Of a DNA stretch of 64,000 nucleotides, positions 3,170-52,336 are shown piece by piece (position 1 is the first letter of the stretch; the number at the start of each line of letters is the position of its first letter). The DNA lies in contig MWCU01000054.1 of NCBI GenBank assembly GCA_002070205.1, positions 11,968 to 75,967 on the forward strand. The letters are read 5' to 3'. Origin of the DNA: Firmicutes bacterium ADurb.Bin182 (GTDB lineage Bacteria > Bacillota > Clostridia > Christensenellales > CAG-138). Under the pieces are notes generated by a model. That model was not told the origin of the DNA. It searched no databases and was given only the letters and a program-made list of their open reading frames with translations. A program made the position numbers and the translations under genes.

Positions 3170-3234
3170 AACTTATTCCAATCAAACGCAAAGGAAACTT
3201 TTATAACCGCATATGCGGTGAAAGCGGGTATACG

Positions 3235-3717: not shown

Positions 3718-3767
3718 ACGCAACCGGTCTATCGCCGGCTGCTGCGCAAATAAAGGGGAGTTAAAAA

Positions 3768-4427
3768 ATGAAAGAAATAGAATCGAACAAGCACTCATGG
3801 AGCCAAATTTCCGAGGATCATTATTACGCATTCAAAGCGCGATTCAAAGAAGGAACTCAATTTTTCAATTATTACATAAAACGGGAGCTCGGGGACATCA
3901 CGGGCAAGGATATCATCCACCTTCAATGCAACACGGGCGCGGATACGATACTTTTAGCGCAGATGGGAGCTGAGCACGTAACGGGAGTGGACTTGGTTCC
4001 CGAGAATATTTATTACGCAAAAAAGCTTGCTTCCGATCTAAATGTGACAAACGTTGATTTTTTTGAATCCGATATCATGACTTTATCGCAAAAATACAAT
4101 AAAAAGCACGATATGGTATTCACTTCGGAAGGTGCGCTCGTGTGGCTTCCGGACATGGAAGTCTGGGCGAAAACTGTACGCTCCCTTTTAAACGATACCG
4201 GATATCTTTATGTTTTCGATTCTCATCCGTTTTTCTTAATGCTGGACGAAGAAAAACTCGATAAGCAGATTTACGATATAAAGTATCCCTACTTTAAAAA
4301 AACGCCCGACTTCGATACGACTATAGGCGGCTACGCTTCGGAGCGCAAGGGTTTAAACACACGGTTGTTTAATGTGGTAGACTGTTATAACCATGTAATA
4401 AGCTATTATAACGAACCGTTCAATTAG
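3768..4427 (+). CDS. class I SAM-dependent methyltransferase, 3'-truncated chimeric copy
   Basis: GGGGAG RBS. Identical to 8995-9795 through ...GGYASERKG. It then reads 23 unrelated residues where the duplication ends at 4351. The SAM-binding region IIHLQCNTGADT is retained. Confidence 0.6.
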   Translation: MKEIESNKHSWSQISEDHYYAFKARFKEGTQFFNYYIKRELGDITGKDIIHLQCNTGADTILLAQMGAEHVTGVDLVPENIYYAKKLASDLNVTNVDFFESDIMTLSQKYNKKHDMVFTSEGALVWLPDMEVWAKTVRSLLNDTGYLYVFDSHPFFLMLDEEKLDKQIYDIKYPYFKKTPDFDTTIGGYASERKGLNTRLFNVVDCYNHVISYYNEPFN

Positions 4428-8077: not shown

Positions 8078-8350
8078 AAAAGGCCGCTTTAGCGGCGGCC
8101 TGTAGAAAAAATGCAGTTTGCAGATTATTCGATGCGTCTTGAGACGCAGCAAGCAGTATGCCCTTTTAGGGCTTGTGCATACCACGCGTTTAACGCGTGG
8201 TTTTGATTCAGGTGAAATAAAAAAACTCAAAATATTGCTCTTAGTCTGTTTTTCTGCTTGCAGCAACAACATTAAAGGAAGAGTCAATATCGGCATGAAC
8301 CACTAAGATGAACGGCTGATTCAATATTGGTAATTGCCGAAAGCCCGCAA

Positions 8351-9578
8351 TAAATGTTGATGATATCAGCCGAATCATATATAATAAGCCGCAGGCAACT
8401 TATTCCAATCAAACGCAAAGGAAACTTTTATGATCGCATATGCGGTTAAAGCGGGTACACGATGTTCAGAGAAATGAGAAGGCACAAACAATTACTGCCG
8501 ACCGATGAGGTGGCAGCGGTAATGGCAAGATGCACGAATGGAGTCCTTGCCTGCGCGGGCGACGACGGTTATCCGTATGCGGTTCCGTTGAGCTATGTAT
8601 ATCATAAAAATAAAATCTATTTTCATTCCGCAAAGGCAGGCCATAAAATCGATTCTATAAAAAGGGATCCCAAGGTTTCATTCGCGGTCGTCGACGAAGA
8701 TACGATAGTCAGTGAGGAATACACGACTTATTATCGCAGCGTCATCGCTTTCGGCAAAGCAAGGATAGCCGAAGGAGCCGAAAGGCTCGAAGCTTTTCGG
8801 GCTTTAGTCGAAAAATATTCGGGCGACCAGCCCGAAGAATCCAAGCGTGAGAAAACGGAAGGGTGTTCGCAATCAGATATCGTCGCAATCGATATCGAGC
8901 ACATGACCGGCAAGCAAGCTATCGAATACGCCGCGAAAAAATAAACGCAACCGGTCTATCGCCGGCTGCTGCGCAAATAAAGGGGAGTTAAAAAATGAAA
9001 GAAATAGAATCGAACAAGCACTCATGGAGCCAAATTTCCGAGGATCATTATTACGCATTCAAAGCGCGATTCAAAGAAGGAACTCAATTTTTCAATTATT
9101 ACATAAAACGGGAGCTCGGGGACATCACGGGCAAGGATATCATCCACCTTCAATGCAACACGGGCGCGGATACGATACTTTTAGCGCAGATGGGAGCTGA
9201 GCACGTAACGGGAGTGGACTTGGTTCCCGAGAATATTTATTACGCAAAAAAGCTTGCTTCCGATCTAAATGTGACAAACGTTGATTTTTTTGAATCCGAT
9301 ATCATGACTTTATCGCAAAAATACAATAAAAAGCACGATATGGTATTCACTTCGGAAGGTGCGCTCGTGTGGCTTCCGGACATGGAAGTCTGGGCGAAAA
9401 CTGTACGCTCCCTTTTAAACGATACCGGATATCTTTATGTTTTCGATTCTCATCCGTTTTTCTTAATGCTGGACGAAGAAAAACTCGATAAGCAGATTTA
9501 CGATATAAAGTATCCCTACTTTAAAAAAACGCCCGACTTCGATACGACTATAGGCGGCTACGCTTCGGAGCGCAAGGG
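8351..9578 (+). repeat. segmental duplication, copy 2
   Basis: See 3126-4351. Confidence 0.9.
8462..8944 (+). CDS. pyridoxamine 5'-phosphate oxidase family protein, copy 2
   Basis: Differs from copy 1 only in the first ~18 residues (MFREMRRHKQLLPTDEVAAV versus MFSEMRRSKQLMSNGDAEAV). Confidence 0.8.
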   Translation: MFREMRRHKQLLPTDEVAAVMARCTNGVLACAGDDGYPYAVPLSYVYHKNKIYFHSAKAGHKIDSIKRDPKVSFAVVDEDTIVSEEYTTYYRSVIAFGKARIAEGAERLEAFRALVEKYSGDQPEESKREKTEGCSQSDIVAIDIEHMTGKQAIEYAAKK

Positions 9579-14921: not shown

Positions 14922-15015
14922 TCAAGCCACACCGTTTACGGGAATACAAATGTCGGGTGTTAAACCGGTTGCCTTGATTCTTCACATAATATTGATGATG
15001 ACGTTGTTCTGCCTT

Positions 15016-16446
15016 TTATTTCATGGGATAAGCCGCCGTAACAGCCGCCCATTCCTTCGGCGTGAACATTGCGCGCACATCTCGGCCGGAGGCATCGGTA
15101 AGCAGGTCTAAGAACACTTTAAGTTTTTTGGCGTCGGTAGTGCCTTCTTTCAGTTCAGGAAATTCGCGGAAAACGGTCTTAAAGCTGTCCCAACCGATCT
15201 CCTGGGCAATTTCCGTAAGCTTTGCGATCATTTCCCAAACACCGTAGCCGTCCTCCAAACGCCCCCCCAACTCACGCGCCGCTTTAAGAACCTCCAAGCC
15301 ACGGAAGGAAGTATTTGAGCTGTATTCGGATGGGGTTGCGCAAATGCTGTTAATATCCATTACATAGAACAGCTTTATGTCAGTCATGACTTCGCAGTTG
15401 AAATCCCAGCTGTGGCCGTCATCGAAAAGGTGGCCCATTTCGTGCAGTACGCCAAAGTTCCAGTCTCCCGGTTCCCGCGCTGCCATTTTGCTCAGGTCTT
15501 CGTACATTGATTTGCTGTCTATGCAGATTTCGTTGGTGCCGGGTGAATAAAACCCCCAGTATTTTTGATGCTCGTTTGCTTGAACCAAAACGGTGTCATA
15601 TTTTGCATAACCGGTCAACTCAGCATAGGAGTCGTATGCATTTTCTAAATCATCCGCCCATTTCTGCAGTCGATCCATACTGATTACCTTTAAAATCCGT
15701 TGTTCCAGAATAATGGTTACAATACCGCGCCCACCCTTCACCTCGATAGGTAACTTAGCCATATTTTGCAGTTGTACAGTCCAAACGTCGCGATCACCGA
15801 TGGCCTTGCGGCGGGTGATAAAGAAACCTCTGTCATTGGATGCTAAAACATACTTAGGTTCCTCGGCGGATACGATAATGTATTCACCAGGCGCATACTC
15901 CTCAAACTGCCAGTGTTGTGCGGTATTGCCGGTATCTTCCCAAAGCTTAACCTTGTTGCCGTTGTTATACCGTGCATTGTCAATATCCAGCATTTTCAGG
16001 CGGAGTGAATCTTTCACAATGTGCCAGCCATCTTCTTGCCCGGCAGGTCTAAAGTACCAGTTATAGGCTTGATCTGAAAGGCAAAGATTATCTTCGAAAC
16101 AGTTTAGATATTGACCTGTGCGGTTTTTGAGGGTAAACACGCCGTAGCTGCAGGGAACGTTTGCGGGGTGGTACGGTGTGGGCTCAAGTACGGGCTCAGG
16201 CGTAGACTCAGGTGTGCGCACGGGTGTGGGTGTGAGTATGAGCGTGAGTGTAGGTTGCCCGGGTTGTGACTGTTCTTTATCGGGTTCCGACTCTGTAGTT
16301 TGTGACATTGACTCTTGCTGCGTTTGTTCAGGTGCAGCGCAGCCTGCAAAACCAACGGTTATGGCTAGCGCCAAAACTAGTGCCGTTAGGTGAAGGATTA
16401 TCGAACTTTTCTTCCGGATAACGCTATTGTGTTGCACTTTTTTCAT
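15016..16446 (-). CDS. lipoprotein with ricin-type beta-trefoil lectin domain and HEXXH zinc-metallopeptidase domain
   Basis: Lipobox VGFAGC. PT-rich linker. QxW motifs (AQHWQF). VLHEMGHLFD zincin motif. Confidence 0.65.
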   Translation of the reverse strand: MKKVQHNSVIRKKSSIILHLTALVLALAITVGFAGCAAPEQTQQESMSQTTESEPDKEQSQPGQPTLTLILTPTPVRTPESTPEPVLEPTPYHPANVPCSYGVFTLKNRTGQYLNCFEDNLCLSDQAYNWYFRPAGQEDGWHIVKDSLRLKMLDIDNARYNNGNKVKLWEDTGNTAQHWQFEEYAPGEYIIVSAEEPKYVLASNDRGFFITRRKAIGDRDVWTVQLQNMAKLPIEVKGGRGIVTIILEQRILKVISMDRLQKWADDLENAYDSYAELTGYAKYDTVLVQANEHQKYWGFYSPGTNEICIDSKSMYEDLSKMAAREPGDWNFGVLHEMGHLFDDGHSWDFNCEVMTDIKLFYVMDINSICATPSEYSSNTSFRGLEVLKAARELGGRLEDGYGVWEMIAKLTEIAQEIGWDSFKTVFREFPELKEGTTDAKKLKVFLDLLTDASGRDVRAMFTPKEWAAVTAAYPMK

Positions 16447-16722: not shown

Positions 16723-16998
16723 AACACACTAAAGAAGCAGGAGGACGGCAGACGGGAGCTGCTGCTAACTCCCCTGCTTTGCGATTATGAAGCAGCCGAT
16801 ATGTTCCCCTATACGGAACGCAAATAACGCTTCAACCGGCATCCATCCCGTTAACTCGAACCGAACCTTTTACGGTTACACAGAAGCCTGGTGTTCAAAA
16901 CCGGTTGCCTTGATGACTCCGGAGGCGGCAGGCGTAAAACGCGCGCCGATAGCTTTCCCGGGTCACCGGTATCCCCATTAATACTATTTGGAAAATGT

Positions 16999-17025
16999 GA
17001 AGCGCAAGAACCGACCCTGCGCTTC
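16999..17025. terminator. hairpin between the orphan transcript region and the 3' end of 17033-17404
   Basis: GAAGCGCA ... TGCGCTTC 8-bp stem, with weak T-rich flanks on both strands. Confidence 0.45.
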
Positions 17026-17032: not shown

Positions 17033-17404
17033 TTATTGCATTTCAGTCTCGCGCCACGCTACAGTGCCGTTTTTTATATGGTTGCGGGCAGCGACGATAT
17101 CTTTTTTCGTAATGCCAAGTTTTTTGGAATAGTACTCGACTTTCTCGCCGGTCCTCTTGATTGAACCCGAGCCTGTGATCAGGCCGATGAAGATGAATAC
17201 TATCGCGAGCAAATTGCCCGCCACACCGCCGATGCCGATCGCAAAGACCTGGCTTATAAGCAGACCGCCTAATACACATGGCAGAAACCGCGTGAATACG
17301 GCTTTAGTCGCATTCGCGCTTGCATTAATATACGCGTCAAAATCCGTCTGAGAAAAGTTCATTCCTTTTTCAAAATGTTCACGTCGGTAATCCGTCGCTT
17401 TCAT
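17033..17404 (-). CDS. hypothetical small membrane protein
   Basis: 123 aa with two adjacent hydrophobic helices in the centre. No family recognised. Confidence 0.5.
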   Translation of the reverse strand: MKATDYRREHFEKGMNFSQTDFDAYINASANATKAVFTRFLPCVLGGLLISQVFAIGIGGVAGNLLAIVFIFIGLITGSGSIKRTGEKVEYYSKKLGITKKDIVAARNHIKNGTVAWRETEMQ

Positions 17405-17515: not shown

Positions 17516-17998
17516 CTATTCATTAAGCAGATACGTTATCAGTACGCATCCGTTGTTAGTTTTTACTATTACCGCAACAAAAGCTTGGCTGCCGCGCCTC
17601 CAGGAAAATCCGCTGAAGCTATCCCCGCTCACATCATCTCCCTCTGTCCATTCATAGTCGCTCAATTCATTATCATAAAATTCTTTTACAGATGATTCCG
17701 AGCCGGGGAAAATGCTGTATATGTTCAACCCGGTTAATGAGTTTTCTTCAGTATAAACTTCCCATCCCTTGAACGGTCCGTCGGTAAGTTCACTGCCCTT
17801 AATTCCCCATACGGTTATCGGTAAACCATTCATTGCAGCGACTGCAGCAGATATTTCTCCGCCACTCTCATATATCGCAATGCTGTCCGCAGAAACGGGT
17901 TCCCGGACAGGTTCTTCAGGTTGTTTTGTCCGGGTTGCGCATGCTGGAAACATAAAAATCATTGCCAACGTTAAAAGAACTGCAAAAAGCTTCTTCAC
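17516..17998 (-). CDS. hypothetical lipoprotein
   Basis: Signal peptide with lipobox MFPAC. GGAGG RBS. No family recognised. Confidence 0.55.
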   Translation of the reverse strand: MKKLFAVLLTLAMIFMFPACATRTKQPEEPVREPVSADSIAIYESGGEISAAVAAMNGLPITVWGIKGSELTDGPFKGWEVYTEENSLTGLNIYSIFPGSESSVKEFYDNELSDYEWTEGDDVSGDSFSGFSWRRGSQAFVAVIVKTNNGCVLITYLLNE

Positions 17999-18414
17999 GG
18001 TATTTCCTCCTAAAGATTTGTTTTATGTTATGCCAAAGGTCTTTCTTCCTTTGGAATAACAAATTTTCATCTGGATACCAATAAGAACGATCCGCACAAT
18101 TAAGCCCGGGCTGCTCTCGAAAACATGACGTACCACAACTTTCTCTTAGTTTTTGTACTCCGGATGATTATGCTGCTTTTATTATGAGCGATAAGAAATA
18201 GTATTTGGTGAGCCGCCGGCACATTTTTTAAAGATATATTGCGTGTTCAAGCCGATGTAACGGTGATGCCGGACCGCAGTTTACCGACAGTATCCGTATC
18301 AATTTTTCGCAGGATCGTGCAGCGGCGGCAGATGCTGTTCGGCGCGTTACGCTCTTGATCGATAGGTATCGCACATAAGAGAGCAGTTTTTGCCGTAAGG
18401 TACAATAAGTAACG

Positions 18415-18458
18415 CGCGCCGCCGTGATGCAGCTTATCGGCAATCCGGCAGCGCGCAA
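18415..18458 (-). repeat. 44-bp copy of the 23312-23355 terminator hairpin, overlapping the adhesin stop codon
   Basis: CGCGCCGCCGTGATGCAGCTTATCGGCAA..CGGCAGCGCGCAA, 42/44 identical to the upstream copy. Confidence 0.9.
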
Positions 18459-21400
18459 GTTTTAATATTAATGATGTTATCGGGTTTTTTTCGCTTCTTA
18501 ACTATCACGAACACCGTTAAGGCAAAGCCGGTAAATATCGCGGCCCATCCCGCCGCGCTTTCACCGCTTCCTGTTTTAGGGGGAGGCAGAGTCGCCGGAC
18601 CCCATGCAGCAAACAGAATAATGTCGCTGTTACCCATTATGAGCGGGCTTTCAACTCGAGTGCCGTCACGAAGCTCCCAGCCCAAGAATATAAATCCCGG
18701 TTTTGATAGCCCCGCGCCCGAGGCGAGGGTTATGCTGTCGCCCGTGTAATAGCGGTTCATATCCACGGGAACGGCGCCTGTTCCGCCGTTCGTATGGTAG
18801 GATACGGTATAGCGGTTTACTGTAGGTTCCGATTGCTCAGATTTTTTAAAAACCGCTTTAAAACTCATATTGCTGTCCACCATAACGGTTATTGGGTTAA
18901 CCTCCGAATAAAATACCCAACTGCTATCTTCGCTTAGTGCCGCATAAGCCGCGCCGTTCAATAATGCATCCGGATCGTTTTCGTTGACGGGGACATCACT
19001 GCTGCCGGTATTCCCGGGGACTAACCAATGAAGGAACGTGTAGCCGCGCCCGGGTACAGCCGTGAGAGTTACGGATGTTTCTTCCTGATAAGTGCCGCCC
19101 TGAGGATCGAACGTAATTTTGCCGCCGCCCTCGGAATCATCTTCTAAAACCGCATCCGCAGTCACGGTAAATGTACCAAGTTCGGTAAAGATTGCGGTAT
19201 AGGTCAGATCTCCTTCGATCTTTTCCGGGAATTCGGCTGACCATCCGCTGAACTTGTAGTCTTCATCCGCTATGGGAGTCGGCGTTGTTACACTTTCATC
19301 CCATGCCGAACCGGTAAGAATACCGGAAAATTGTACTTGTGTTTCGCCGCCGGTAAAAGACCCGTGTTCGCCCGCTATAAATGTGACGGTGTGCCAATCG
19401 CTTTCTTTAATTTTAAAATATGCGGTGTAGACAGCCGTTTCATATTTACCGTCTTTCTGTCCGGGTATTATCGGATTTTCGGTTATATGCATGCTGTCAT
19501 CATCGCGTGTCCAATAGTCAAATTCATAGCCCGGCATAGCTTCTGCTTCTGAACCTTGCGCTTTGCCCGTTTCGGGGTTAAGTTCTTCGCTGTTCCGGCT
19601 GACCGAACCCATTTCATTGTCGGCGGATATATAGCTGATGGTTACTTTATCAAGCTCAGTAAAATACGCGGTATAGGCAAGATTTTCGCTCCAGCCTTCG
19701 TCTGGTCTGTTTACTGTTAATGTTTCCTCTGAGGTTACAGTGTCGGTCCCTTTTCTCCACTCCACAAAACGGTAACCCGGTTTCGGTATCGCTTTCGAGC
19801 TGACAGACGATACGCCTGAGTGCAAAACAGCGCTTGTTAAGTCCACCGTGCCCATGCTGTCATTGTCGGCTCTGAACGTGACAGTATATGTTTTTTCAAA
19901 GTTTGCGGCATATGTGACGGGTACCCAGACCGCTCCCGGTTTTGTCGGCACAAAGTTCGCATCCGTGCTGACTTCAACGCCATCACAAGTCCAGTTAACA
20001 AAGCGGTAGCCGTCGCTTGCCGTCGCGGTTGAGCCTTGCGCTATGCCTGTTGCAGGGGCAAGGCTCTCGCTGCTTCGGTCGATCGAACCGCCGACGCCCG
20101 CCGTGTATGTTATGGTAACATTGGCGTTTTCTATGAAATTTGCGATATAGGTGACTGGCATCCAGACCGCTCCCGGTTTTGTCGGCACAAACTTCGCATC
20201 CGTGCTGACTTCAACGCCATCACAAGTCCAGTTAACAAAGCTGTAGCCGACGTCTGCCGTTGCCTTTGAGCCTTGAGCTATGCCTGTAGCCGGGGCAAGG
20301 CTTTCGCTGCTCGGGTCGACCGAACCGCCGGCGCCCGCCGTATATGTTATGGTCACATCAGGTTTTTCTCTAAAGGTTGCGGTATATGTTTCAGTTTCGG
20401 TGATTGTTTCCGGCAAGACGGGGTCCCATTTATCGAACTCATATCCGGCATTTGCGACAGGTTCCGGCTCTGTGTCTATGGCGTCTTCCCATGCCGTTCC
20501 TGTGAGAATATCGGTAAATTCAGTTTTTGTTCCGGCGGCAAAATATCCGTGATCGCCTGCTTCAAACGTAACGGTATGCCATTGACCGGGATCCTTTATA
20601 AAGCTTACTTTATAAGTTATGCTCGCAGTTATCATGCTTTCGCTATTGCTGTCCGGCAATTCGGGACTCCAATTCGCCGCATAACCATTGTCCGGAACCG
20701 GCGTAGGTACTGTTATTCCGGCATCTTTCCATTTCGTACCGTTTAAAATCTCATACTGCGTTTTACCGTTAAGATGTCCGTTGCCGCCGTCTGTTTCGAA
20801 CAAGACTTTATGCCACATAGCGGGATCCTTTTCAAAATATGCGGTATAAGCCGCATCGCTCCAGCCGCCGGCGGGTTTAGAAACCGTCAGCACGGCGTTT
20901 GAGGAAACAAAATCATTGGAGTCTCGCCATTCAACAAAACGGTAACCCGTATTCGGGGTCGCAGCGGAACTGACCGAAACCGTATTCAGGTCCACGCTTG
21001 CACTTGCGGGGCTGACCGTACCCATGGCTGAATCGCCGGAATTAAAAGTAATCGTATGTGGGACTGGCTCGAAGTATGCGGTATAAGCCGCATTACTCCA
21101 GCCGCCGGCGGGCTTAGGAACCGTCAGCACGGCGTTTGAGGAAACAAAACCATTGGAGTCTCGCCATTCAACAAAACGGTAACCCGTATTCGGGGTCGCA
21201 GTGGAACTGACCGAAACCGTATTCAAGTCCACACTTGCACTTGCGGGGCTGACTGTACCCATGGATGAATCGCCGGAATTAAAAGCAATCGTATATGGTA
21301 CAGGCTCGAAGTATGCGGTATAAGTTACATCACTCCAGCCGCCTGCGGGTTGAAAAACCGTCAAAACGGCATTATTGGAAACGGGATTCTCGCCGTTTCT

Positions 21401-23029
21401 CCACTCAATAAATCGATAGCCCGCATTAGGAATCGCAGTGGAGCTTACAGATGATACGCCTGAATGCAGAACAGAGCTTGTTAAGTCCACCGTGCCCATG
21501 CTGTTATTGCCGGATTCAAACGTAGCGGTATAAGTTTTTTCAAAGTTTGCCCTAAATGTTAAGGGTATCCAGGGACCTCCTTCCGGTTTTGGCGGCACAA
21601 ATTTCGCATCTTGACCAACTTCAACGCCGTTATGGGTCCAATTAACAAAGCGGTAGCCGTCGTTCGCTGTCGCGGTTGAACCTTGCGCTATGCCCGTAAC
21701 CGGGGCAAGGCTTTCGCTGCTTCGATCGACCGAGCCGCCGACACCTGCTTCGTATGTGATGGTTACATCGGCATTTTCTCTGAAGTTTGCGGTATAGGTG
21801 ACAGGTACCCAGACCACTCCCGGCTTTGTCGGCACGAACTTTGCATCCGTGCTGACTTCAACGCCATCACAAGTCCAGTTAACAAAGCTGTAACCGATGT
21901 TCGCCGTTGCGGTTGAGCCTTGCGCCACGCCTATCTTAGGGTTAAGCCACTCGCTGCTTGGGTTTATCGAACCGCCTGCTGTTGCTTCGTAATTGATCGG
22001 TATATGCTTAAGTTCTTTGAATAGCGCTGTATAAGTTTTTGTTTCTGTTATCGTATCCGGCAATTCGGGATCCCATTTATCGAACTCGTAGCCGTCTGAC
22101 GGGTGTATGGACGGCATTGGTTTTATTGCCGTATTCCATGGTGTTCCGGTTATTATATTGGAAAAGATTTTTGTACCGAGTAATGACCCATGTTCGCCCG
22201 CCTGAAGCGTAACGGTAAAGCGTTCCTCGGGATTCTCTTTCCATCTTGCGGTATAGGTCTTATCTTGATTTATTATGCCTGTATCGCCGGGCAGCGCAGG
22301 ATCCCACCTGTCAAATAAATATCCGGGTTTGCGGTTCGTTTCTGGTACCGTTATGCCGGCGTTTCTCCACTCTGTGCCGCTGGTGACTCTGAACTCCGCT
22401 GTCCCCGAAAGCGTGCCCTTATTCGGATCTTCGGTCACGAAATTTATCGTGTACTTGGGGGAATAGTAAACTCTTAACTGTAAGTGGTCGAGCCATATAT
22501 CCTTACTTCCTCCCGTGCATTTCAGCCAGACGCGTAATGGATCATTTACCAGCCCGGGCGTCCACATGTCATAGCCCCACTTTTCGGTGGGACCGCCCAG
22601 TATTATTGTCGACCATGAAGTACTGCTGACAGCCCCTGTGTCTTTAAAATAAGTAAAATTGCCTACCGGCGCATGATTACTATCACGCAGAGATACTTCC
22701 AGCGAGCGGTATTCATTTTCATTTCCATTTTCGTTGCATCGAACCCTCAAGTGCACTTCAATCCCATCTATCCTGCAGTCTTCGGGCACAATGGGTGCGC
22801 TATGTTCTGTGAAAGTATATTCTACTATTGAATCTTCAATGTAAAACCTGGCATATTGTCCGTCAGATGAATAGGCATTTTCCGGGTCACTTACCAACTC
22901 AGGGTTGCTAAAGCGTATATAGGACTGTGCGCTTAACAGCCCGGTATCATCCGCCAGCGCAAGCGGCCTTGCCATGACGAATATGAAAGAAAAAATCAAG
23001 ACCAACGCGAGAATTCTTCTGCACGACAT
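18434..23029 (-). CDS. giant sortase-anchored adhesin with about 16 Listeria-Bacteroides-type (GYxFxxW) repeat domains
   Basis: Start ATG 23029 behind GGGGAGG. Signal peptide ...RPLALA. Repeated ~75-80 aa modules ending ..YTA.F. C-terminus has PPKTG, a hydrophobic helix and KKRKK. Confidence 0.85.
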   Translation of the reverse strand: MSCRRILALVLIFSFIFVMARPLALADDTGLLSAQSYIRFSNPELVSDPENAYSSDGQYARFYIEDSIVEYTFTEHSAPIVPEDCRIDGIEVHLRVRCNENGNENEYRSLEVSLRDSNHAPVGNFTYFKDTGAVSSTSWSTIILGGPTEKWGYDMWTPGLVNDPLRVWLKCTGGSKDIWLDHLQLRVYYSPKYTINFVTEDPNKGTLSGTAEFRVTSGTEWRNAGITVPETNRKPGYLFDRWDPALPGDTGIINQDKTYTARWKENPEERFTVTLQAGEHGSLLGTKIFSNIITGTPWNTAIKPMPSIHPSDGYEFDKWDPELPDTITETKTYTALFKELKHIPINYEATAGGSINPSSEWLNPKIGVAQGSTATANIGYSFVNWTCDGVEVSTDAKFVPTKPGVVWVPVTYTANFRENADVTITYEAGVGGSVDRSSESLAPVTGIAQGSTATANDGYRFVNWTHNGVEVGQDAKFVPPKPEGGPWIPLTFRANFEKTYTATFESGNNSMGTVDLTSSVLHSGVSSVSSTAIPNAGYRFIEWRNGENPVSNNAVLTVFQPAGGWSDVTYTAYFEPVPYTIAFNSGDSSMGTVSPASASVDLNTVSVSSTATPNTGYRFVEWRDSNGFVSSNAVLTVPKPAGGWSNAAYTAYFEPVPHTITFNSGDSAMGTVSPASASVDLNTVSVSSAATPNTGYRFVEWRDSNDFVSSNAVLTVSKPAGGWSDAAYTAYFEKDPAMWHKVLFETDGGNGHLNGKTQYEILNGTKWKDAGITVPTPVPDNGYAANWSPELPDSNSESMITASITYKVSFIKDPGQWHTVTFEAGDHGYFAAGTKTEFTDILTGTAWEDAIDTEPEPVANAGYEFDKWDPVLPETITETETYTATFREKPDVTITYTAGAGGSVDPSSESLAPATGIAQGSKATADVGYSFVNWTCDGVEVSTDAKFVPTKPGAVWMPVTYIANFIENANVTITYTAGVGGSIDRSSESLAPATGIAQGSTATASDGYRFVNWTCDGVEVSTDANFVPTKPGAVWVPVTYAANFEKTYTVTFRADNDSMGTVDLTSAVLHSGVSSVSSKAIPKPGYRFVEWRKGTDTVTSEETLTVNRPDEGWSENLAYTAYFTELDKVTISYISADNEMGSVSRNSEELNPETGKAQGSEAEAMPGYEFDYWTRDDDSMHITENPIIPGQKDGKYETAVYTAYFKIKESDWHTVTFIAGEHGSFTGGETQVQFSGILTGSAWDESVTTPTPIADEDYKFSGWSAEFPEKIEGDLTYTAIFTELGTFTVTADAVLEDDSEGGGKITFDPQGGTYQEETSVTLTAVPGRGYTFLHWLVPGNTGSSDVPVNENDPDALLNGAAYAALSEDSSWVFYSEVNPITVMVDSNMSFKAVFKKSEQSEPTVNRYTVSYHTNGGTGAVPVDMNRYYTGDSITLASGAGLSKPGFIFLGWELRDGTRVESPLIMGNSDIILFAAWGPATLPPPKTGSGESAAGWAAIFTGFALTVFVIVKKRKKPDNIINIKTCALPDCR
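20833..21545 (-). repeat. three tandem ~237-bp intragenic repeats (two nearly identical)
   Basis: 20833-21069 and 21070-21306 differ at only a few positions. 21307-21545 is more diverged. Confidence 0.85.
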
Positions 23030-23304
23030 ATTTTCTTGCCTCCCCGGAATATTGAATTGCAACTGTTTTCCCTTTTATTATGTATCCCAAAAGTCCGTGC
23101 CGCTGAAGGCACGTTCCTAAAAAACCTGCTCAGATGCTGTTTACCCGTCAGGGTAAGCAACAGTTCCCTATTAAAGAGTAGCATAAAAAAAAGGCTGCGG
23201 CATCGTACCTAAGTACGATATTGCGACAAAATTCTTATATAAGGGAAGACTGATTAAGGCTTTCCTAAATAACCGGTCGACTTGATGCCGCCGGAGTCGG
23301 CAGA

Positions 23305-23355
23305 AGAAAAACGCGCCGCCGTGATGCAGCTTATCGGCAACTCGGCAGCGCGCAA
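23305..23355 (-). terminator. Rho-independent terminator of the CofE-like gene
   Basis: Minus strand: CGCGCTGCCG - 21-nt loop - CGGCGGCGCG, followed by TTTTT. Confidence 0.7.
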
Positions 23356-23437
23356 ATTCTTATATTCGTAATCTCATTTTCTTTATCCGCACCGGGCGCG
23401 AAACATACTTCGGCCCGGCGTGCTTTCAGTGTGCGTC

Positions 23438-24619
23438 TCAGTCCGCGTAATTGTTGAAATAGTTCTGTATGAGCACTATGGGAGTGCCTTTGTCCCCGCT
23501 TCCGGTGGTCAGGTCGCACAGCGAACCGATAAGATCGGTCAGGCGCCTCGGCGTCGTGCCCTGCGAAAGCATGTTTCCCATCAGATCGCGGTCTTTGCTG
23601 CGGATCCTGTCGCGGATCGCCTGACTCAGTTCCTCGCCCGAAAGATTGGCAAAATCATTGTCCGCGATGTATTTGAGCTTCAGCTCGTTGGGAAGGCCTG
23701 TGAGACCGTCCGTATACCCGGGCGATACAACGGGATCCGCAAGCTCCCAGATCTTGCCCACGGGATCCTTGAACGCGCCGTCGCCGTATACCATGACCTC
23801 TATGTTCTTTTCCGTCCTTTTGAGCAATTCCGCCTGCACGGCTTTGACGAACCGGACGCAGTCCCTCGGGAAAAGCTTCACCGTATGCTCCGACGCTTTG
23901 TTGGAACCCAAAAGGCCGTAATTCTCGTTGAAACCGCTGCCGTTTACGGATGAGGTGAGTATATCGTCAAGCCCGAGCACATTGCGTACGCCGGCTTTTT
24001 TTATAAGCCGCTTTGTGCGCGCGCGGGTGTGGATATCGCAGCACAGCACGTCTTTTGTAAACTTTAAGATAGCTTCGGGCCGGTTCGCGAATATGACCTC
24101 CGCCTCCGCTCCCGATTCCGCGATAAGCGACCGATAGTATTCGACATAATCCATATTGGTGAAAGGATGTATGGGATAGCCGAAATGCTTTCTGAATTCC
24201 TCAAGGCTCAGTACGTCGGACCAGGGGTTGACTCCGCTTGAATCCAATGCGTCCTCGTCTATCAGGTGATTGCCGACTTCGTCCGAAGGGTAGCTCAATT
24301 GCAGCACGATTTTTTTGCAGCCGAGCGCGATTCCTCTCAGAACTATCGCAAAGCGGTTTCGGCTCAGTATGGGGAACAAAACCCCGACGGTCCCGCCGCC
24401 GAACTTAGCTTTTATATCGTCCCTGATGTTTTCAACGCTTGCATAGTTGCCCTGCGATTTTGCGACCACCGCTTCGGTAACCGCTACCACGTCCCTGTCG
24501 TTGAAGCCGTAACCGTTTTGTTCCGCGTCCTTGAGCACGCTGTTAACTGTGATTTCAACAAGATCGTCGCCGCTTCGTATAATGGGCGCTTTGATTCCCC
24601 GGGAAATAGTTCCTGCCAT
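23438..24619 (-). CDS. CofE-like (F420-0:gamma-glutamyl ligase family) protein
   Basis: 393 aa. N-terminus GIKAPIIRSGDDLVEI...VVAVTEAVVAKSQG resembles the CofE/FbiB ligase fold. Assigned by recall only. Confidence 0.5.
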   Translation of the reverse strand: MAGTISRGIKAPIIRSGDDLVEITVNSVLKDAEQNGYGFNDRDVVAVTEAVVAKSQGNYASVENIRDDIKAKFGGGTVGVLFPILSRNRFAIVLRGIALGCKKIVLQLSYPSDEVGNHLIDEDALDSSGVNPWSDVLSLEEFRKHFGYPIHPFTNMDYVEYYRSLIAESGAEAEVIFANRPEAILKFTKDVLCCDIHTRARTKRLIKKAGVRNVLGLDDILTSSVNGSGFNENYGLLGSNKASEHTVKLFPRDCVRFVKAVQAELLKRTEKNIEVMVYGDGAFKDPVGKIWELADPVVSPGYTDGLTGLPNELKLKYIADNDFANLSGEELSQAIRDRIRSKDRDLMGNMLSQGTTPRRLTDLIGSLCDLTTGSGDKGTPIVLIQNYFNNYAD

Positions 24620-24718: not shown

Positions 24719-24853
24719 AGAGCTTCGCTCGCAGAGCGGCAGCTTAGCTGCCGTAGAGAACGCTTACGCGCGTCGAGAGGAAGCTTACGCTTCCGCAGAG
24801 TCGTAGAGAGCAAGCTGCGCTTGCGTATAGAATAAGCGCAAAGCATTTTATTC
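24719..24853 (+). repeat. tandem array of 21-25 bp AGAG-prefixed mini-hairpins
   Basis: Six to seven units. The arms differ but remain complementary: CGGCAGC/GCTGCCG, GGAAGC/GCTTCC, GCAAGC/GCTTGC, GAGC/GCTC. Confidence 0.8.
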
Positions 24854-24858
24854 AGACT

Positions 24859-25071
24859 GTCAAAAAACCCCTCCTAGGGATTATCAAGGGATCGGAACCC
24901 CTTGATTTACATTCCGGCTTCGGTGGCATGTACGTTGAAACGGATGAAATTCGTAAGAATTTCGTACATTGCACGCTTTGACGCTCGAAAATCTCTGATT
25001 TTAGTTCGTCAAAAATCTTGTTTTTGACTACGTGTAAATCTCGAAAAAGTCTGTACAGCCTTTTTCGACAC
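24859..25071 (+). repeat. structured dispersed element, copy A
   Basis: Shares ordered conserved boxes with 52337-52527 and with the reverse complement of 43589-43882. Confidence 0.85.
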
Positions 25072-25182
25072 GCTGCATAAACGCAAAGCGTTTATTCTCT
25101 ACTATTGCTCAACAATTGCTTTACGGCTGTGATTGCGCCATAGCGTAACTCGCAGTCTTTGCGGCTTTGCAGCTCCGGCGTA

Positions 25183-31278: not shown

Positions 31279-31413
31279 GGGATTATTAAGGGGCCGAGCG
31301 GAAATTTTCGATTGCAGGCAAAACATGTACAATTTGAAGGGGTCCATCCGGACTTCTTCGATACTCAAACCCGGCCGTGCCGGGTTATTTTACGAACAGG
31401 AGCTGTCGGCCGC

Positions 31414-32373: not shown

Positions 32374-33396
32374 TTGAATATGGTTCCGGGTATCATCAAA
32401 ATATTCGCGGGAAGAACGGGCAGGGTTTTCGCCTCGAAAATGTGCGATTATCTCGGTGCAAAGCTGGGTGATTCCGAGACGATCAGGTTCTCCGAAGGGA
32501 ATATATTCGTAAAGGTAAATGAATCCATAAGGGATAAGGATGTATATATCGTTCAGCCCATAGGCCGCGAACCCAACGATGAATTTGTGGAACTTCTTTT
32601 CTGGATAGACGCATTCAAGCGCGCAAGCGCAAATTCCGTTACCGCCATCATCCCGTATTTCAGCTACGCAAAAGGAGATAAAAAGGACGAACCCCGCGTT
32701 TCCATACGCGCGAGAGTATGTGCCGAATGCATTGAGCTTGCGGGAGCGGACCGCATTTTGACAATGGACCTTCATAGTGCTCAGGTCCAGGGATTTTTCA
32801 AAAAACCGGTCGATCATCTGTACGCGAGTTCCATTCTGTGCGAATATGCAAGAAGAATAGGCATTGTGGATGAGGACCTCGTGGTCGTATCGCCGGACGC
32901 CGGATTCGCGAAACGCGCGAGGCAGTTTGCAAATGAGCTTGGCTGCCCGGTCGCTATCGGCGACAAAACGCGCTCCGATCATGACGAAAAAGCAAAAGTG
33001 CTTGAGATCATCGGCGACGTAAAAGGCAAGAATTGTCTTGTCGTCGACGACTTTACGATTTCAGGCGGAACTTTGGTCGATTTGGCTCTCGGGCTCAAGG
33101 ATAAGGGAGCGAAAAGGATATTTGCTTTCCTGTCGCATATAGTTTTAGGCGAAGCCGGAGTCAAAAAAATCGAAGAGAGTCCGATTGAGCTGCTGGTTTC
33201 CACCGATACCGTGCAATGCCCCGCCGTGAAAGGATCGGGCAAGATCAAAATCGTTTCCGCCGCTCCCATGTTTGCGGAAGCCGTCAGGATCATCCACGAC
33301 CGCGAACCCATGAGCAAGATGTTCACTGAGTCCGCGTCAAGGCGGATGTTCGATATGAGCTTCGCGTCGCAGCTGAGCATAAAGGATATTAGATAG
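32374..33396 (+). CDS. prs: ribose-phosphate pyrophosphokinase
   Basis: DLHSAQVQGFF and PRPP-loop VVDDFTISGGTL motifs. The start could be TTG 32374 or ATG 32380. Confidence 0.9.
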   Translation: MNMVPGIIKIFAGRTGRVFASKMCDYLGAKLGDSETIRFSEGNIFVKVNESIRDKDVYIVQPIGREPNDEFVELLFWIDAFKRASANSVTAIIPYFSYAKGDKKDEPRVSIRARVCAECIELAGADRILTMDLHSAQVQGFFKKPVDHLYASSILCEYARRIGIVDEDLVVVSPDAGFAKRARQFANELGCPVAIGDKTRSDHDEKAKVLEIIGDVKGKNCLVVDDFTISGGTLVDLALGLKDKGAKRIFAFLSHIVLGEAGVKKIEESPIELLVSTDTVQCPAVKGSGKIKIVSAAPMFAEAVRIIHDREPMSKMFTESASRRMFDMSFASQLSIKDIR

Positions 33397-33575
33397 TTTT
33401 CAGTATATAGTAACAAGTATTCAGTTGAATGAAAAAAATCTGCCTCCCGGCAGATTTTTTTTGAACTAATAACTTTATCAGTTTTCAGTATATAGTAATA
33501 AGTATTCAGTTTATGAAAAAAAATCTGCGGCAGCAGATTTTTCATTAAATTATAACTTTATCAGTTTTGAGTATT
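33397..33575 (+). repeat. two and a bit tandem ~84-bp modules (AT-rich box + AAATCTGCC..GGCAGATTT hairpin)
   Basis: Units 33397-33481 and 33482-33564. A partial third unit is cut off at 33575. Confidence 0.85.
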
Positions 33576-33702
33576 CGGACGAAATGGGCGGGCGATTCGT
33601 GAATCGCCCCTACATATAGGAATAACATGTCAGTACAATACAACATATTGTAGGGAACGACCCCCATGTCGTTCCGAATTTGTATTTCCGGGCAACCCTT
33701 TC
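33576..33702 (+). repeat. GGGCGATTC-hairpin element, copy 1
   Basis: Collinear with 60172-60349 except for one loop. Confidence 0.85.
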
Positions 33703-33741
33703 CTGAACTTATAACTCATTACTTATTATTGATAACTGTTC

Positions 33742-33766
33742 AAATCTGCCTCCCGGCAGATTTTTC
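33742..33766. terminator. AAATCTGCC-TCCC-GGCAGATTT hairpin (bidirectional terminator-like)
   Basis: Perfect 9-bp stem with A/T runs on both sides. It lies between the convergent prs and murC genes. Confidence 0.6.
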
Positions 33767-33799
33767 ATGAACTTATAACTGAATACTTATTACTGAGAA

Positions 33800-35164
33800 C
33801 TATAAAAGCTTTTTAGTCTGCTTATACACGTCTCCGCTGCCGAGGGTCAAAACGAGGTCGCCGGGTTTTGCGGTCGTTTTAAGATAATCGCGCACGTCCT
33901 CGAATGTCGGAGTATAGCGGGCGTCGATCCCCGCGTTTACAAATGCGTTTACCATGTCCCCGGCATGAACGGTGCCGTCGTCCTTCTCGCGCCCCGGATA
34001 AATGTCTACCGTCAGCACTTCATCCGCGCCGGCAAGGCATGAGGGGTCCTTTAAGAACAGAGTTTTTGCCCGCGTATAGGAATTGCATTGAAGGACCGCT
34101 ATCAGCCTGTTGCGCTTCACCCTATTCGCGGTCTCAATTATCGCACGGATCTCGCCGGGATGATGGGCAAAGTCGTGGTAAAGCATTGCGCCCTCGGGCG
34201 TTTTGCCGTAAAACTCAAACCTGCGCTTGGCAAGCCTGTAGCGAGATAATGCCTCGGCGGCCTTTTTTATGTCCGATTTCAGCTCGAGCGCGACCGCCAT
34301 CGCGGCGAGCGAATTCATAACGTTATGCGTTCCCGGAACGTGAAGCGTTATCCGCGCGAGTTTTTCACCCTTGTAAGTAAAGTCATAGGACGCTGAGCCC
34401 GAATCGTCGAATTCGATGTTCTGCGGGCGGCAGTCTCCGCCGTGCATTCCGTAAGTCAGCTTACGTCCCTTGAATTCCCCGAGCAGCTTTATTACGTGCT
34501 CGTCGTCCGTGCAGCCTATAAACAAACCGTCTTCCGGAAGCTTATTGACGAATTTTCTAAACGCGTCCGTGATGGCGTCGATGTCCTTGAAATAGTCGAG
34601 ATGATCGTCATCGATGTTATGAATAAGAGCTATGGTCGGCCGCAGCGTTAAAAAACTTTCCACATATTCGCAGGCTTCGGTAATAAAGAGGTCTTTTGAG
34701 CCGACGCGCGTCCCTCCGCCTAAAAACTCTTCGTATCCGCCTACGTGTACAGTGGCATCCGGTCCTCCCGTCAAACTGATAAGAGCGAGCATGGATGTTA
34801 TCGTGGTTTTGCCGTGGCAGCCGGCAATGCCGACAACGCTTTTGTATCCTTCGGATAATTGTCCGAGAGCGACGGAACGCTCAAGCTCCGGGATGCCGGC
34901 TTCGCGCGCGGCGCGGCGCTCCGGGTTATCCGGCTTGATTGCCGCCGAATAGATTATTAAATCGCTGCTGCCTATGTTTTCAGGCCTGTGTCCGATAAAT
35001 ACGGGAATGCCGAGCTCAATGAGCCTGTCGGTAAAAGGGGAATCGGTAACGTCTGAACCCTGGACCTTCAAGCCCCGATCGGATAGCAGCTGGGCAAGCC
35101 CGTTCATGGAGCACCCCCCGATTCCGATCAGGTGAACTTGTTTATGATTATTGATATGCGTCAT
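33800..35164 (-). CDS. murC: UDP-N-acetylmuramate--L-alanine ligase
   Basis: GIGGCSMNGLA and GCHGKTTITSM motifs, with a Mur ligase C-terminal domain. Confidence 0.95.
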   Translation of the reverse strand: MTHINNHKQVHLIGIGGCSMNGLAQLLSDRGLKVQGSDVTDSPFTDRLIELGIPVFIGHRPENIGSSDLIIYSAAIKPDNPERRAAREAGIPELERSVALGQLSEGYKSVVGIAGCHGKTTITSMLALISLTGGPDATVHVGGYEEFLGGGTRVGSKDLFITEACEYVESFLTLRPTIALIHNIDDDHLDYFKDIDAITDAFRKFVNKLPEDGLFIGCTDDEHVIKLLGEFKGRKLTYGMHGGDCRPQNIEFDDSGSASYDFTYKGEKLARITLHVPGTHNVMNSLAAMAVALELKSDIKKAAEALSRYRLAKRRFEFYGKTPEGAMLYHDFAHHPGEIRAIIETANRVKRNRLIAVLQCNSYTRAKTLFLKDPSCLAGADEVLTVDIYPGREKDDGTVHAGDMVNAFVNAGIDARYTPTFEDVRDYLKTTAKPGDLVLTLGSGDVYKQTKKLL

Positions 35165-38013: not shown

Positions 38014-38033
38014 TAGAATTGGAGATTTTTATA

Positions 38034-38984: not shown

Positions 38985-39025
38985 ACTCTAAGCGTGATTG
39001 TGACATACGATATACGATTGTTACA

Positions 39026-52331: not shown

Positions 52332-52336
52332 AGATC

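What the first reader, a model, noticed from the sequence alone, without database searches (positions are those of the whole stretch)
18415..23355. The giant adhesin gene lies between two copies of its neighbour's terminator and ends inside one of them
The 44-bp sequence CGCGCCGCCGTGATGCAGCTTATCGGCAA..CGGCAGCGCGCAA occurs at 23312-23355 and at 18415-18458, with 42/44 positions identical. At 23312-23355 it forms the stem-loop plus T5 terminator of the CofE-like gene. The 18415-18458 copy supplies the last seven codons (..CALPDCR) and the stop of the 1531-aa adhesin. A second terminator-like hairpin with T8 (about 23190-23225, minus strand) lies upstream of the adhesin promoter region. The layout suggests a ~4.9-kb cassette, promoter plus adhesin, inserted into the terminator with duplication of the target. 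The ORF then simply runs on until the first stop in the duplicated hairpin.
Basis: seen in the sequence. Interest (0 to 1): 0.6.

Follow-up and report, generated by a model that had tools for sequence, protein, structure and literature searches.

The report
Repeated terminator module flanking accessory surface genes
The two 44-base repeats are real, but they are two of four diverged copies of a longer gene-end (terminator) module that separates a run of accessory surface-protein genes, and the adhesin gene reads on into one copy to find its stop codon; this is ordinary recombinational genome patchwork, not a new kind of element.

Summary
The sequences 18415-18458 and 23312-23355 match at 42/44 positions, and no other copy occurs in the window. 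The adhesin's last seven codons and its TAA lie in the first copy.

The 44-mer is the hairpin core (H) of a longer module with three parts. These are a leader U (~35 nt), the hairpin H (46 nt), and a T-run plus tail D (~50-75 nt).

Four diverged copies sit on the minus strand, each after one transcription unit:
- the CofE-like gene
- the adhesin
- the lipoprotein plus a 123-aa ORF
- the M60-like peptidase

A conspecific contig (L076) is almost identical across the CofE-like gene up to 31 nt before its stop. After that it diverges, carries one module, and then an IS1182-family transposase instead of the adhesin. Its non-coding module aligns at 88.6% over 79 nt with the adhesin's post-KKRKK codons. 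All 16 tail codons are therefore module sequence.

One assembly has A8 instead of A7 at the junction, so the protein ends KKRKKTR*. Hairpins A and B match at 43/46 while their flanks are much less alike, so this is not a fresh target-site duplication.

Most likely this is serial recombinational stacking of accessory genes next to the CofE-like gene. Interest is modest.

The parts
23438..24619 (-). CofE-like gene (393 aa, PF01996 F420_ligase domain). It is the conserved anchor gene upstream of the array. It is not a bona fide CofE by the NCBIfam cut-off.
   Evidence: Pfam E=3.3e-56. TIGR01916 scores 42 bits against a cut-off of 180. GC3 is 0.665.
23439..23468 (-). Cluster of 6 synonymous differences from conspecific contig L076. 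It marks a recombination breakpoint in the last 31 nt of the CofE-like gene.
   Evidence: There are 0 mismatches over gene nt 540-1151 and over 135 nt upstream. Then come 6 mismatches in nt 1152-1181, followed by a diverged 3' UTR.
23388..23422 (-). First hairpin (hp1) after the CofE-like stop. It has no T-run. It is homologous to, but diverged from, the one in L076.
   Evidence: Fold -22.3 kcal/mol, z -2.45; alignment A1.
23253..23394 (-). Module copy B, complete. It comprises U 23356-23394, hairpin H 23312-23355, T5 23307-23311, and tail D including the motif CATCAAGTCGACCGGTT at 23271-23287.
   Evidence: nhmmer 128 bits; fold; D motif.
23185..23227 (-). Second terminator-like hairpin followed by T8. 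It is preceded by the same 12-mer (ATATAAGAATTT) that precedes hairpin B.
   Evidence: Fold -15.8 kcal/mol, z -3.17; the 12-mer match 23229-23240 against 23354-23365.
18434..23029 (-). Adhesin-like surface protein of 1531 aa. It has a signal peptide, 9 Flg_new_2 and 1 Flg_new (InlB B-repeat) domains, and a PPKTG sorting signal.
   Evidence: Pfam; TIGR01167 matches residues 1484-1515 through to the end of the model. The best non-self homolog is 34% identical. GC3 is 0.50.
18485..18499 (-). KKRKK codons. The A7 run at 18485-18491 is where homology to the module begins. It is A8 in one other assembly.
18434..18484 (-). The 16 tail codons (PDNIINIKTCALPDCR) plus TAA. All are encoded by module sequence (U and the 5' half of H).
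   Evidence: 79-nt ungapped alignment to the non-coding L076 module. 5 of the 16 residues differ from what L076's sequence would encode (sequence).
18405..18493 (-). Module copy A. It has U and H (18413-18458) only. The T-run has decayed (TTACTTATT), and what follows shows no significant similarity to D.
   Evidence: nhmmer 107 bits; D_A against the other D tails p=0.2-0.55; fold.
17516..17998 (-). Lipoprotein-like ORF of 160 aa. It is an orphan.
   Evidence: Only a self hit in the protein database; GC3 0.42.
17033..17404 (-). 123-aa ORF with a hydrophobic stretch. It has no Pfam family.
16882..17003 (-). Module copy C. U is weak, the hairpin is degenerate, T4 is present, and D is well kept (motif at 16899-16915).
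   Evidence: nhmmer 73 bits; D_B against D_C p=0 in 1000 shuffles.
15016..16446 (-). M60-like peptidase with a ricin-type lectin domain and a lipoprotein-type signal.
   Evidence: Pfam PF13402 and PF14200; GC3 0.53.
14931..15000 (-). Module copy E. A U-like 14-mer (CATCATCAATATTA) is joined to distal D (motif at 14963-14979). There is no hairpin.
   Evidence: (U_A against U_E p=0.003; D_C against D_E p=0).

Best explanation
**What it is.** The 44-nt repeat is the hairpin core of a roughly 90-150-nt gene-end module. The module has an A/T-rich leader U, a 46-nt GC-rich hairpin H, and a T-run plus tail D. In this organism it belongs to the 3' end of the CofE-like gene.

**Shown**
- Four diverged copies lie on the same strand. 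Each sits directly after one transcription unit: the CofE-like gene, the adhesin, the lipoprotein plus 123-aa ORF, and the M60-like peptidase.
- The three downstream units have lower GC3 than the core genes. Two of them have no relatives in the databases.
- The first unit is absent from its place in one conspecific contig.
- Sequence identity between that contig and the window collapses 31 nt before the CofE-like stop.
- The adhesin has no stop or terminator of its own. After its sortase signal (PPKTG, membrane span, KKRKK) the frame passes at an A7 run into module copy A. It then reads 16 codons of otherwise non-coding sequence to a TAA in the hairpin's apical region.

**Inferred**
- The accessory units were stacked one after another beside the CofE-like gene by recombination.
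- The 3' end of the CofE-like gene and the module served as homology for that recombination.
- One route is a homologous crossover in the anchor with an illegitimate join at the far end. The other is a crossover inside the hairpin.
- Each event added a homeologous module copy and pushed older copies downstream, where they decay.
- Because the stop sits inside hairpin A and its T-run has decayed, termination after the adhesin is probably weak. The lipoprotein and the 123-aa ORF may then be co-transcribed with it.
For: - **Four module copies, none elsewhere in 64 kb.** nhmmer profile, pairwise alignments with shuffle tests, and a D motif found exactly three times, all on the minus strand.
- **Conspecific contig L076.** The CofE-like gene is 99.1% identical, with no mismatch over nt 540-1151 and 135 nt upstream. 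Then come 6 of 31 mismatches and a diverged 3' UTR. One module follows, then an IS1182-family transposase and no adhesin.
- **Origin of the tail.** L076's module matches copy A at 88.6% over 79 nt, covering the adhesin tail codons. H identities are A-B 43/46, A-L 42/46 and B-L 40/46, against U+H identities of 60, 67 and 58 out of 83.
- **Canonical end of the protein.** TIGR01167 ends at KKRKK. Homologs end 1-6 residues after their basic cluster. The A8 variant ends KKRKKTR*.
- **Composition.** GC3 is 0.58-0.67 in core genes against 0.42-0.54 in the accessory units.
- **Orphans.** The adhesin's best non-self hit is 34% identical. The lipoprotein has none.
- **Hairpin.** It is kept through G-U changes on the minus-strand RNA.
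- **Precedents.** Sequential displacement arrays by homology-facilitated illegitimate recombination are described in PMC5361080. A stop codon close to a terminator represses termination in E. coli (PMC4824070).
Against: - The polarity is not established. L076 could equally be the strain that was replaced.
- L076's module is 88.6% identical to copy A, not near-identical, so L076 is not the empty ancestral site. At least two events are needed under any scenario.
- No donor genome was found.
- Only about 64 kb plus a few short contigs of this organism could be examined, so more module copies elsewhere in the genome cannot be excluded.
- Copy A lacks a recognisable D tail. A simple displacement model does not predict that.
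- The A8 variant lies 40 nt from a run of N near a contig end and could be an assembly error.
- The terminator function of any copy is predicted, not measured. The apical region of H (14-21 nt) is larger than in textbook terminators.
Confidence: 0.5

Rival explanations
1. One promoter-plus-adhesin cassette transposed into the CofE-like terminator hairpin, and the whole stem-loop was duplicated as the target. IS1182-family elements can in principle do this, because they attack stem-loops.
For: - An IS1182-family transposase lies beside the module in conspecific contig L076.
- It sits where copies C and E have a small stem-loop (CCGTAAAAGG and CCGTAAACGG).
- The IS1182-family member IS1272 targets stem-loops. 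[quoted passage not shown]
- The best-conserved part of the repeat is exactly the hairpin.
Against: - No transposase, inverted repeats or IS remnant lie in or beside 18459-23311.
- Homology extends about 35 nt beyond the hairpin on the U side.
- The copies differ at 3 of 46 positions in H and far more in the flanks, whereas the assemblies differ by less than 0.5%.
- Two further module copies exist, one of them without a hairpin.
Confidence: 0.15
2. The hairpin is the core of an attachment site for a site-specific recombinase encoded elsewhere. Circular elements integrated one after another, as in tandem island accretion or integron-like cassettes, and each regenerated a copy of the site.
For: - Identity is high only in H and drops on both sides, as at an att core.
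- The copies form a same-orientation array with orphan cargo.
- The flanks swap: U of copy A resembles U in L076 and copy E, while D of copy B resembles D of copy C.
Against: - No integrase or recombinase was found among the window ORFs scanned.
- By inspection there are no attC-type R''/R' core sites (GTTRRRY) at the hairpin feet (sequences).
- Copy E lacks the hairpin altogether.
- The adhesin unit appears to carry its own upstream region with terminator-like hairpins, unlike promoterless cassettes.
Confidence: 0.1
3. This is an old local duplication of the terminator region. Selection or gene conversion then kept the hairpins alike. Under this view the genes between the copies are long-term residents and the contig without the adhesin is a later replacement.
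For: - H is conserved far better than U and D, as expected if both hairpins are selected as terminators.
- Copies A and B share states that L076 lacks (TTGCGCGC and GATAAG), which fits gene conversion.
- The window holds another large direct repeat flanking surface-protein genes.
Against: - It does not explain why the adhesin lacks its own stop and fuses to the module at an A-run.
- It does not explain the low GC3 and orphan status of the cargo.
- It does not explain the sharp breakpoint in the CofE-like gene between conspecific contigs.
Confidence: 0.15
4. The module belongs to a genome-wide dispersed repeat family (REP- or MITE-like) that happens to have several copies here.
For: The window contains other short intergenic repeat families. 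Only a small part of the genome could be searched.
Against: - There are no copies in the other roughly 55 kb of the window.
- All copies have the same orientation and all sit at ends of transcription units.
- Exact-word scans of 185,579 genomes and of the JGI metagenomes gave only chance hits, and a scan of viral contigs gave none.
Confidence: 0.07

Closest known systems
Sequential displacement arrays made by homology-facilitated illegitimate recombination (T6SS effector-immunity arrays in Vibrio cholerae, PMC5361080; Rhs C-terminal displacement)
   Same: There is a conserved upstream anchor with a recombination breakpoint. New cargo arrives next to the anchor and older units are pushed downstream. 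Relics of the anchor's end are repeated along the array.
   Different: - The repeated relic here is a non-coding terminator module, not a coding segment.
- The cargo is surface or secreted proteins, not toxin-immunity pairs.
- No donors are known.
- The mechanism is inferred from one conspecific contig only.
Stem-loop-targeted transposition of IS1182-family elements (IS1272, PMC5678879)
   Same: A terminator-like stem-loop is the place of insertion. An IS1182-family transposase lies next to the module in a conspecific contig. Duplication of a whole stem-loop is one predicted outcome.
   Different: - The adhesin segment has no transposase or element ends.
- The repeat extends beyond the stem-loop.
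- The copies are diverged.
- IS1272 itself was seen to delete its target stem-loop, not to duplicate it.
Integron gene-cassette arrays (attC sites)
   Same: It is a same-orientation array of mostly orphan genes separated by imperfect palindromes, and an ORF ends inside a palindrome.
   Different: There are no attC core sites and no integrase. One unit is 4.6 kb and has its own upstream region. One module copy has no palindrome.
Sortase-anchored Gram-positive surface proteins with InlB B-repeat (Flg_new) domains
   Same: It has a signal peptide, repeated Flg_new and Flg_new_2 domains, a PPKTG motif, a hydrophobic span and a KKRKK tail. The motif is of the (S/P)PXTG type, which from my own knowledge is used by Clostridioides difficile sortase B.
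   Different: Sixteen extra residues follow the basic tail, and they are encoded by terminator-module sequence. No orthologs exist outside this organism.

Membership tests
Intrinsic (Rho-independent) terminator | GC-rich stem-loop in the transcript of the upstream gene | tested here: met
   There is an 11-14-bp GC-rich stem on the minus-strand RNA (-28.5 and -28.9 kcal/mol), better than on the plus strand. 95.6% of pair cells are kept in copies A, B and L076.
Intrinsic (Rho-independent) terminator | Short loop (3-8 nt) | tested here: not met
   The apical region is 14-21 nt with only weak internal pairs. The consensus scan picked only a 5-bp sub-hairpin in copy B.
Intrinsic (Rho-independent) terminator | U-tract directly after the stem | tested here: inconclusive
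   Copy B has U5, L076 has U4 and copy C has U4. Copy A has UUACUUAUU, so its tract is interrupted.
Intrinsic (Rho-independent) terminator | Transcripts end there | not testable with these tools
   This needs 3'-end RNA mapping.
Target-site duplication of a transposable element | Direct repeats that abut the terminal inverted repeats of an element carrying, or served by, a transposase | tested here: not met
   There is no transposase or IS remnant between or beside the repeats. No inverted repeats at the borders were reported.
Target-site duplication of a transposable element | Repeats identical or nearly so, and confined to the staggered-cut length | tested here: not met
   H is 43/46 identical, but homology continues into U at about 65% with a gap. 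Further copies exist.
Integron cassette array (attC) | R''/R' core sites (RYYYAAC ... GTTRRRY) at the feet of the palindrome | tested here: not met
   By inspection the 3' feet read GTTACTT, GTTTTTC, GTTTTGC and GTTTTAC. No AAC is conserved at the 5' feet (sequences).
Integron cassette array (attC) | IntI-type integrase nearby | tested here: not met
   No integrase family appeared among the 27 window ORFs scanned. The rest of the genome was not searched.
Sequential displacement / accretion array next to a conserved anchor | Recombination breakpoint inside the conserved upstream gene between strains | tested here: met
   There are 0 mismatches over nt 540-1151, then 6 in the last 31 nt, then a diverged 3' UTR.
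Sequential displacement / accretion array next to a conserved anchor | Repeated relics of the anchor's 3' end after each displaced unit | tested here: met
   There are four module copies, each after one transcription unit.
Sequential displacement / accretion array next to a conserved anchor | Different cargo at the same place in different strains, with identifiable donors | tested here: inconclusive
   One contig carries an IS1182-family transposase instead of the adhesin. No donors were found, and the protein and DNA searches gave no other strains.
Sortase-anchored (LPXTG-type) surface protein | LPXTG-like motif, hydrophobic span and basic tail at the C-terminus | tested here: met
   TIGR01167 scores 17.3-19.3 bits against a cut-off of 15.9, matching residues 1484-1515 to the end of the model. 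The sequence is PPKTG...KKRKK.
Sortase-anchored (LPXTG-type) surface protein | Protein ends within a few residues of the basic tail | tested here: not met
   16 residues follow KKRKK in the window and in L078. Homologs have 1-6. The A8 variant has 2.
Sortase-anchored (LPXTG-type) surface protein | Cognate sortase in the genome | not tested
   No sortase was looked for.
CofE (F420-0:gamma-glutamyl ligase) | Score above the equivalog cut-off | tested here: not met
   TIGR01916 scores 42 bits against 180.65. Only the Pfam domain PF01996 is met. 'CofE-like' is therefore the right name.

The most novel reading that the evidence does not exclude
The 46-nt hairpin may be the recognition structure of a recombination or transposition system that has not been described. 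One candidate is an IS1182-type, structure-dependent transposase acting in trans. Such a system would capture whole, promoter-bearing genes at a terminator and build integron-like arrays of surface-protein genes in an uncultured Clostridia lineage.
Probability: 0.07. Interest if true: 0.75.

Novelty: new variant of a known kind. Interest (0 to 1): 0.35.

Why it matters
If the reading is right, a gene's terminator region, not only its coding sequence or a tRNA gene, can serve as the reusable landing pad where accessory surface-protein genes pile up. The case also shows how an acquired gene can borrow both its stop codon and its terminator from the resident sequence. For annotation, the last 16 residues of this adhesin are not part of the functional protein. 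They lie beyond the sorting signal, which, from general knowledge of sortase substrates, is cleaved off during anchoring. The near-identical hairpins also explain why short-read assemblies do not always resolve this locus cleanly. The wider interest is modest because the mechanisms proposed are known ones.

Tried and rejected
- **Dispersed repeat.** Searches of the window with up to 3 mismatches, blastn-short and an nhmmer profile found no copies outside the array.
- **18-mer scan of 185,579 genomes.** It gave 70 hits. None extends beyond the word, and most lie in coding sequence for the peptide motif MQLIG.
- **20-mer scan of JGI metagenomes.** It gave one chance hit. A viral-contig scan gave none. 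These exact words would miss variants such as the one in L076.
- **Synteny in relatives.** CofE-like proteins at 81-82% identity (L003, L004) have unrelated neighbours and unrelated terminators, with no module.
- **Adhesin orthologs.** None exist; the best non-self hit is 34% identical.
- **Lipoprotein relatives.** None exist.
- **Exact-protein look-ups.** Look-ups of the M60-like peptidase and the 123-aa ORF returned only the same strain.
- **Paralogy among the cargo genes.** There is none.
- **Rfam.** The region has no known RNA family.
- **attC signature.** It is absent by inspection.
- **IS1182 end remnants in the window.** Only chance-level 16-mers were found.
- **Covariation in the hairpin.** There are only one-sided G-U changes and only three sequences, so there is no statistical support.
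- **Sigma-70-type promoter for the adhesin.** None was found on the minus strand.
Full report
**1. The observation**

The 44-mer at 23312-23355 recurs at 18415-18458 with two adjacent differences. No other match with up to three mismatches exists in the 64-kb window, and none appeared in 100 shuffles.

Ungapped similarity runs over 63 nt at 87%. On the minus strand, copy B is followed by T5 and lies 82 nt after the stop of the PF01996 gene at 23438-24619.

Both copies fold into long GC-rich hairpins as minus-strand RNA, at -28.5 and -28.9 kcal/mol. They fold less well on the plus strand because several pairs are G-U.

The adhesin ORF is on the minus strand at 18434-23062. Its probable start is the ATG at 23029 after GGGGAGG, giving 1531 aa. 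It ends KKRKKPDNIINIKTCALPDCR*, with the TAA at 18436-18434 inside the hairpin's apical region. The T8 hairpin at 23185-23227 is also real.

**2. The proteins and the organism**

The adhesin has nine Flg_new_2 domains and one Flg_new (InlB B-repeat) domain. It also has a sortase signal. TIGR01167 matches residues 1484-1515 through to the last position of the model, which is exactly the end of KKRKK. Sixteen residues therefore lie beyond the canonical end.

Homologous proteins with such signals stop 1-6 residues after their basic cluster.

The window comes from 'Firmicutes bacterium ADurb.Bin182'. Two other assemblies of the same organism carry the same arrangement:
- GCA_022706985.1, seen as L001 and L077
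- Logan SRR17648133, seen as L002, L078 and L079

They are 99.45-99.87% identical to the window.

The adhesin's best non-self relative is 34% identical. The 160-aa lipoprotein has no relative at all.

**3. A conspecific contig without the adhesin at this place**

Contig L076 (ENA ERZ22666056, 2184 nt) encodes a CofE-like protein with one amino-acid difference. Compared with the window, its DNA shows the following:
- It is identical over the 135 nt upstream of the gene.
- It has no mismatch over gene nt 540-1151.
- It then has 6 mismatches in the last 31 nt, all synonymous.
- Its 3' UTR is strongly diverged.

That is a recombination breakpoint. Downstream, L076 has one hairpin module followed, on the other strand, by the end of an IS1182-family transposase gene. 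There is no adhesin.

**4. The repeat is part of a longer module, and the adhesin tail is module sequence**

L076's module aligns without gaps over 79 nt, at 88.6% (E=2e-23), with window 18489-18411. That stretch runs from the A-run of the KKRKK codons through the whole hairpin. All 16 tail codons therefore correspond to sequence that is non-coding 3' UTR in L076.

Translated in the same frame, L076's sequence would give PDNVMDIKSRALPDCR. That is five differences in 16 residues, so there is no sign of selection on the peptide.

Identities between the copies:

| Segment | A-B | A-L076 | B-L076 |
|---|---|---|---|
| Hairpin H (46 nt) | 43 | 42 | 40 |
| U plus H (83 nt) | 60 | 67 | 58 |

The changes in the stem are one-sided G-U changes, and three sequences are too few for statistics.

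In GCA_022706985.1 the A-run is A8 rather than A7, so the protein ends KKRKKTR*. That variant lies 40 nt from a run of N near a contig end and may be an assembly error. The Logan contig has A7.

**5. Four copies, not two**

Downstream of hairpin B comes a tail D (CTGCCGACTCCGGCGGCATCAAGTCGACCGGTT...). It recurs after the 123-aa ORF at 16945-16882, together with a degenerate hairpin and T4; this is copy C.

Its distal part recurs after the M60-like peptidase gene at 14979-14931. There it is joined to a 14-mer (CATCATCAATATTA) that matches the U of copy A at 13 of 14 positions; this is copy E, which has no hairpin.

Shuffle tests give p=0 for D_B against D_C and for D_C against D_E, and p=0.003 for U_A against U_E. 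The sequence after hairpin A is not significantly like any D (p=0.2-0.55).

The motif CATCAAGKCRACCGGTT occurs exactly three times, always on the minus strand. A profile built from the modules finds nothing else in the window. L076's tail D is also homologous, up to the point where the IS begins. That point corresponds to a small stem-loop in copies C and E.

The layout on the minus strand is therefore:
- CofE-like gene, then module B
- adhesin, then module A
- lipoprotein and 123-aa ORF, then module C
- M60-like peptidase, then module E

**6. What this says about the origin**

The cargo genes are not paralogs of one another. Their GC3 is 0.42-0.54, against 0.58-0.67 for the neighbouring core genes and 0.665 for the CofE-like gene.

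No integrase or transposase was found among 27 window ORFs. No IS1182 remnant is present.

The module copies differ from one another far more than the assemblies differ from one another. A recent target-site duplication is therefore excluded. The copies are either old or came from different, related donors.

I favour serial recombinational stacking next to the CofE-like gene. Three points support this:
- the breakpoint inside the anchor gene
- the fusion of the adhesin frame to the module at an A-run
- the increasing decay of the module copies with distance from the anchor

The published analogues are displacement arrays ascribed to homology-facilitated illegitimate recombination (PMC5361080).

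I cannot decide between an illegitimate far-end join and a crossover within the hairpin. I also cannot tell which of the two strain types is derived. L076's module is not near-identical to copy A, so at least two events occurred.

**7. Rivals**

- **Stem-loop-targeted transposition.** IS1182-family elements do attack stem-loops and could duplicate one (PMC5678879), and such an element sits beside the module in L076. However, the adhesin segment has no element ends, and the homology exceeds the stem-loop.
- **An att-type or integron-like site.** There is no recombinase and no attC signature.
- **An old in-situ duplication with selection on the hairpins.** This remains possible.
- **A genome-wide repeat family.** This is unlikely on present data, but it was tested on only a small part of the genome.

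**8. Functional inference**

Copy B looks like a working terminator: a strong stem, U5, and an A-tract that pairs with it. Copy A has an interrupted U-tract and contains the stop codon.

In E. coli, a terminator placed a few bases after a stop codon is almost fully repressed by the translating ribosome (PMC4824070). Read-through from the adhesin into the lipoprotein gene and the 123-aa ORF is therefore plausible. It is untested, and transcription-translation coupling in this lineage is unknown.

The 16-residue tail lies beyond the sorting signal. From general knowledge of sortase substrates, that signal is removed during anchoring, so the tail should not matter to the mature protein.

**9. Verdict**

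This is a variant of known recombinational accretion at a hotspot. Its unusual feature is that the repeated landmark is a non-coding terminator module. Interest is modest.

Noticed in passing
window 3121-4351 and 8346-9578: A 1234-nt direct repeat at 97.3% identity covers a PNPOx-like gene and a methyltransferase gene. It flanks about 4 kb that holds a polysaccharide deacetylase and a beta-helix/Big_5 surface protein. Other assemblies break their contigs at this repeat. This is a second case in the window of direct repeats flanking surface-protein genes.
   Followed up: partly
window 24852-25074, 52330-52530, 31292-31368, 43585-43661: This is a family of intergenic repeats of about 70-220 nt at 78-84% identity, with one copy inverted. 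They contain the palindrome TCGAAAAAGTCTG..CAG.CTTTTTCGA. One copy lies just upstream of the CofE-like gene. There is no Rfam match.
   Followed up: no
window 33395-33801 and 41830-41957: Clusters of near-perfect hairpin-plus-T-run units (AAAATCTGCC.CCCGGCAGATTTT) lie in inverted orientation on either side of an 8-kb segment. That segment includes a very low-GC island at 37171-41205 (GC3 0.27-0.32) with RCC1-, RHS- and DUF5050-like ORFs and its own 300-nt repeats.
   Followed up: no
window 18485-18491; L077 about 300-308: There is a homopolymer difference, A7 against A8, at the KKRKK codons. It switches the adhesin C-terminus between a 16-residue and a 2-residue tail. It could be real slippage or an assembly error, because 12 N lie 40 nt away.
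   Followed up: partly
L076 1533-2184: An IS1182-family transposase fragment begins where module copies C and E carry a small stem-loop (CCGTAAAAGG and CCGTAAACGG). This fits the stem-loop-replacing insertion described for IS1272.
   Followed up: partly
window 24437-24439 (CofE-like codon 61): Three adjacent base differences between the window and L076 change a serine codon from AGC to TCA without changing the protein.
   Followed up: no
window 19749-22116: The adhesin gene has internal repeats with a 237-nt period, corresponding to 79-aa B-repeat units, up to 93% identical (20832-21305). The other assemblies end their contigs inside this gene.
   Followed up: no
window 57897-58163 (minus strand): This is a bacterial large SRP RNA gene, the only Rfam match in the window.
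   Followed up: no
Genome-contig hits L005-L074: The 18-mer GATGCAGCTTATCGGCAA from the hairpin's apical region occurs 70 times in unrelated genomes. From my own arithmetic, about 17 hits are expected by chance. Most encode the peptide motif (G)MQLIG of amidase-type proteins. This is coincidence, but it shows that the word is not specific.
   Followed up: yes
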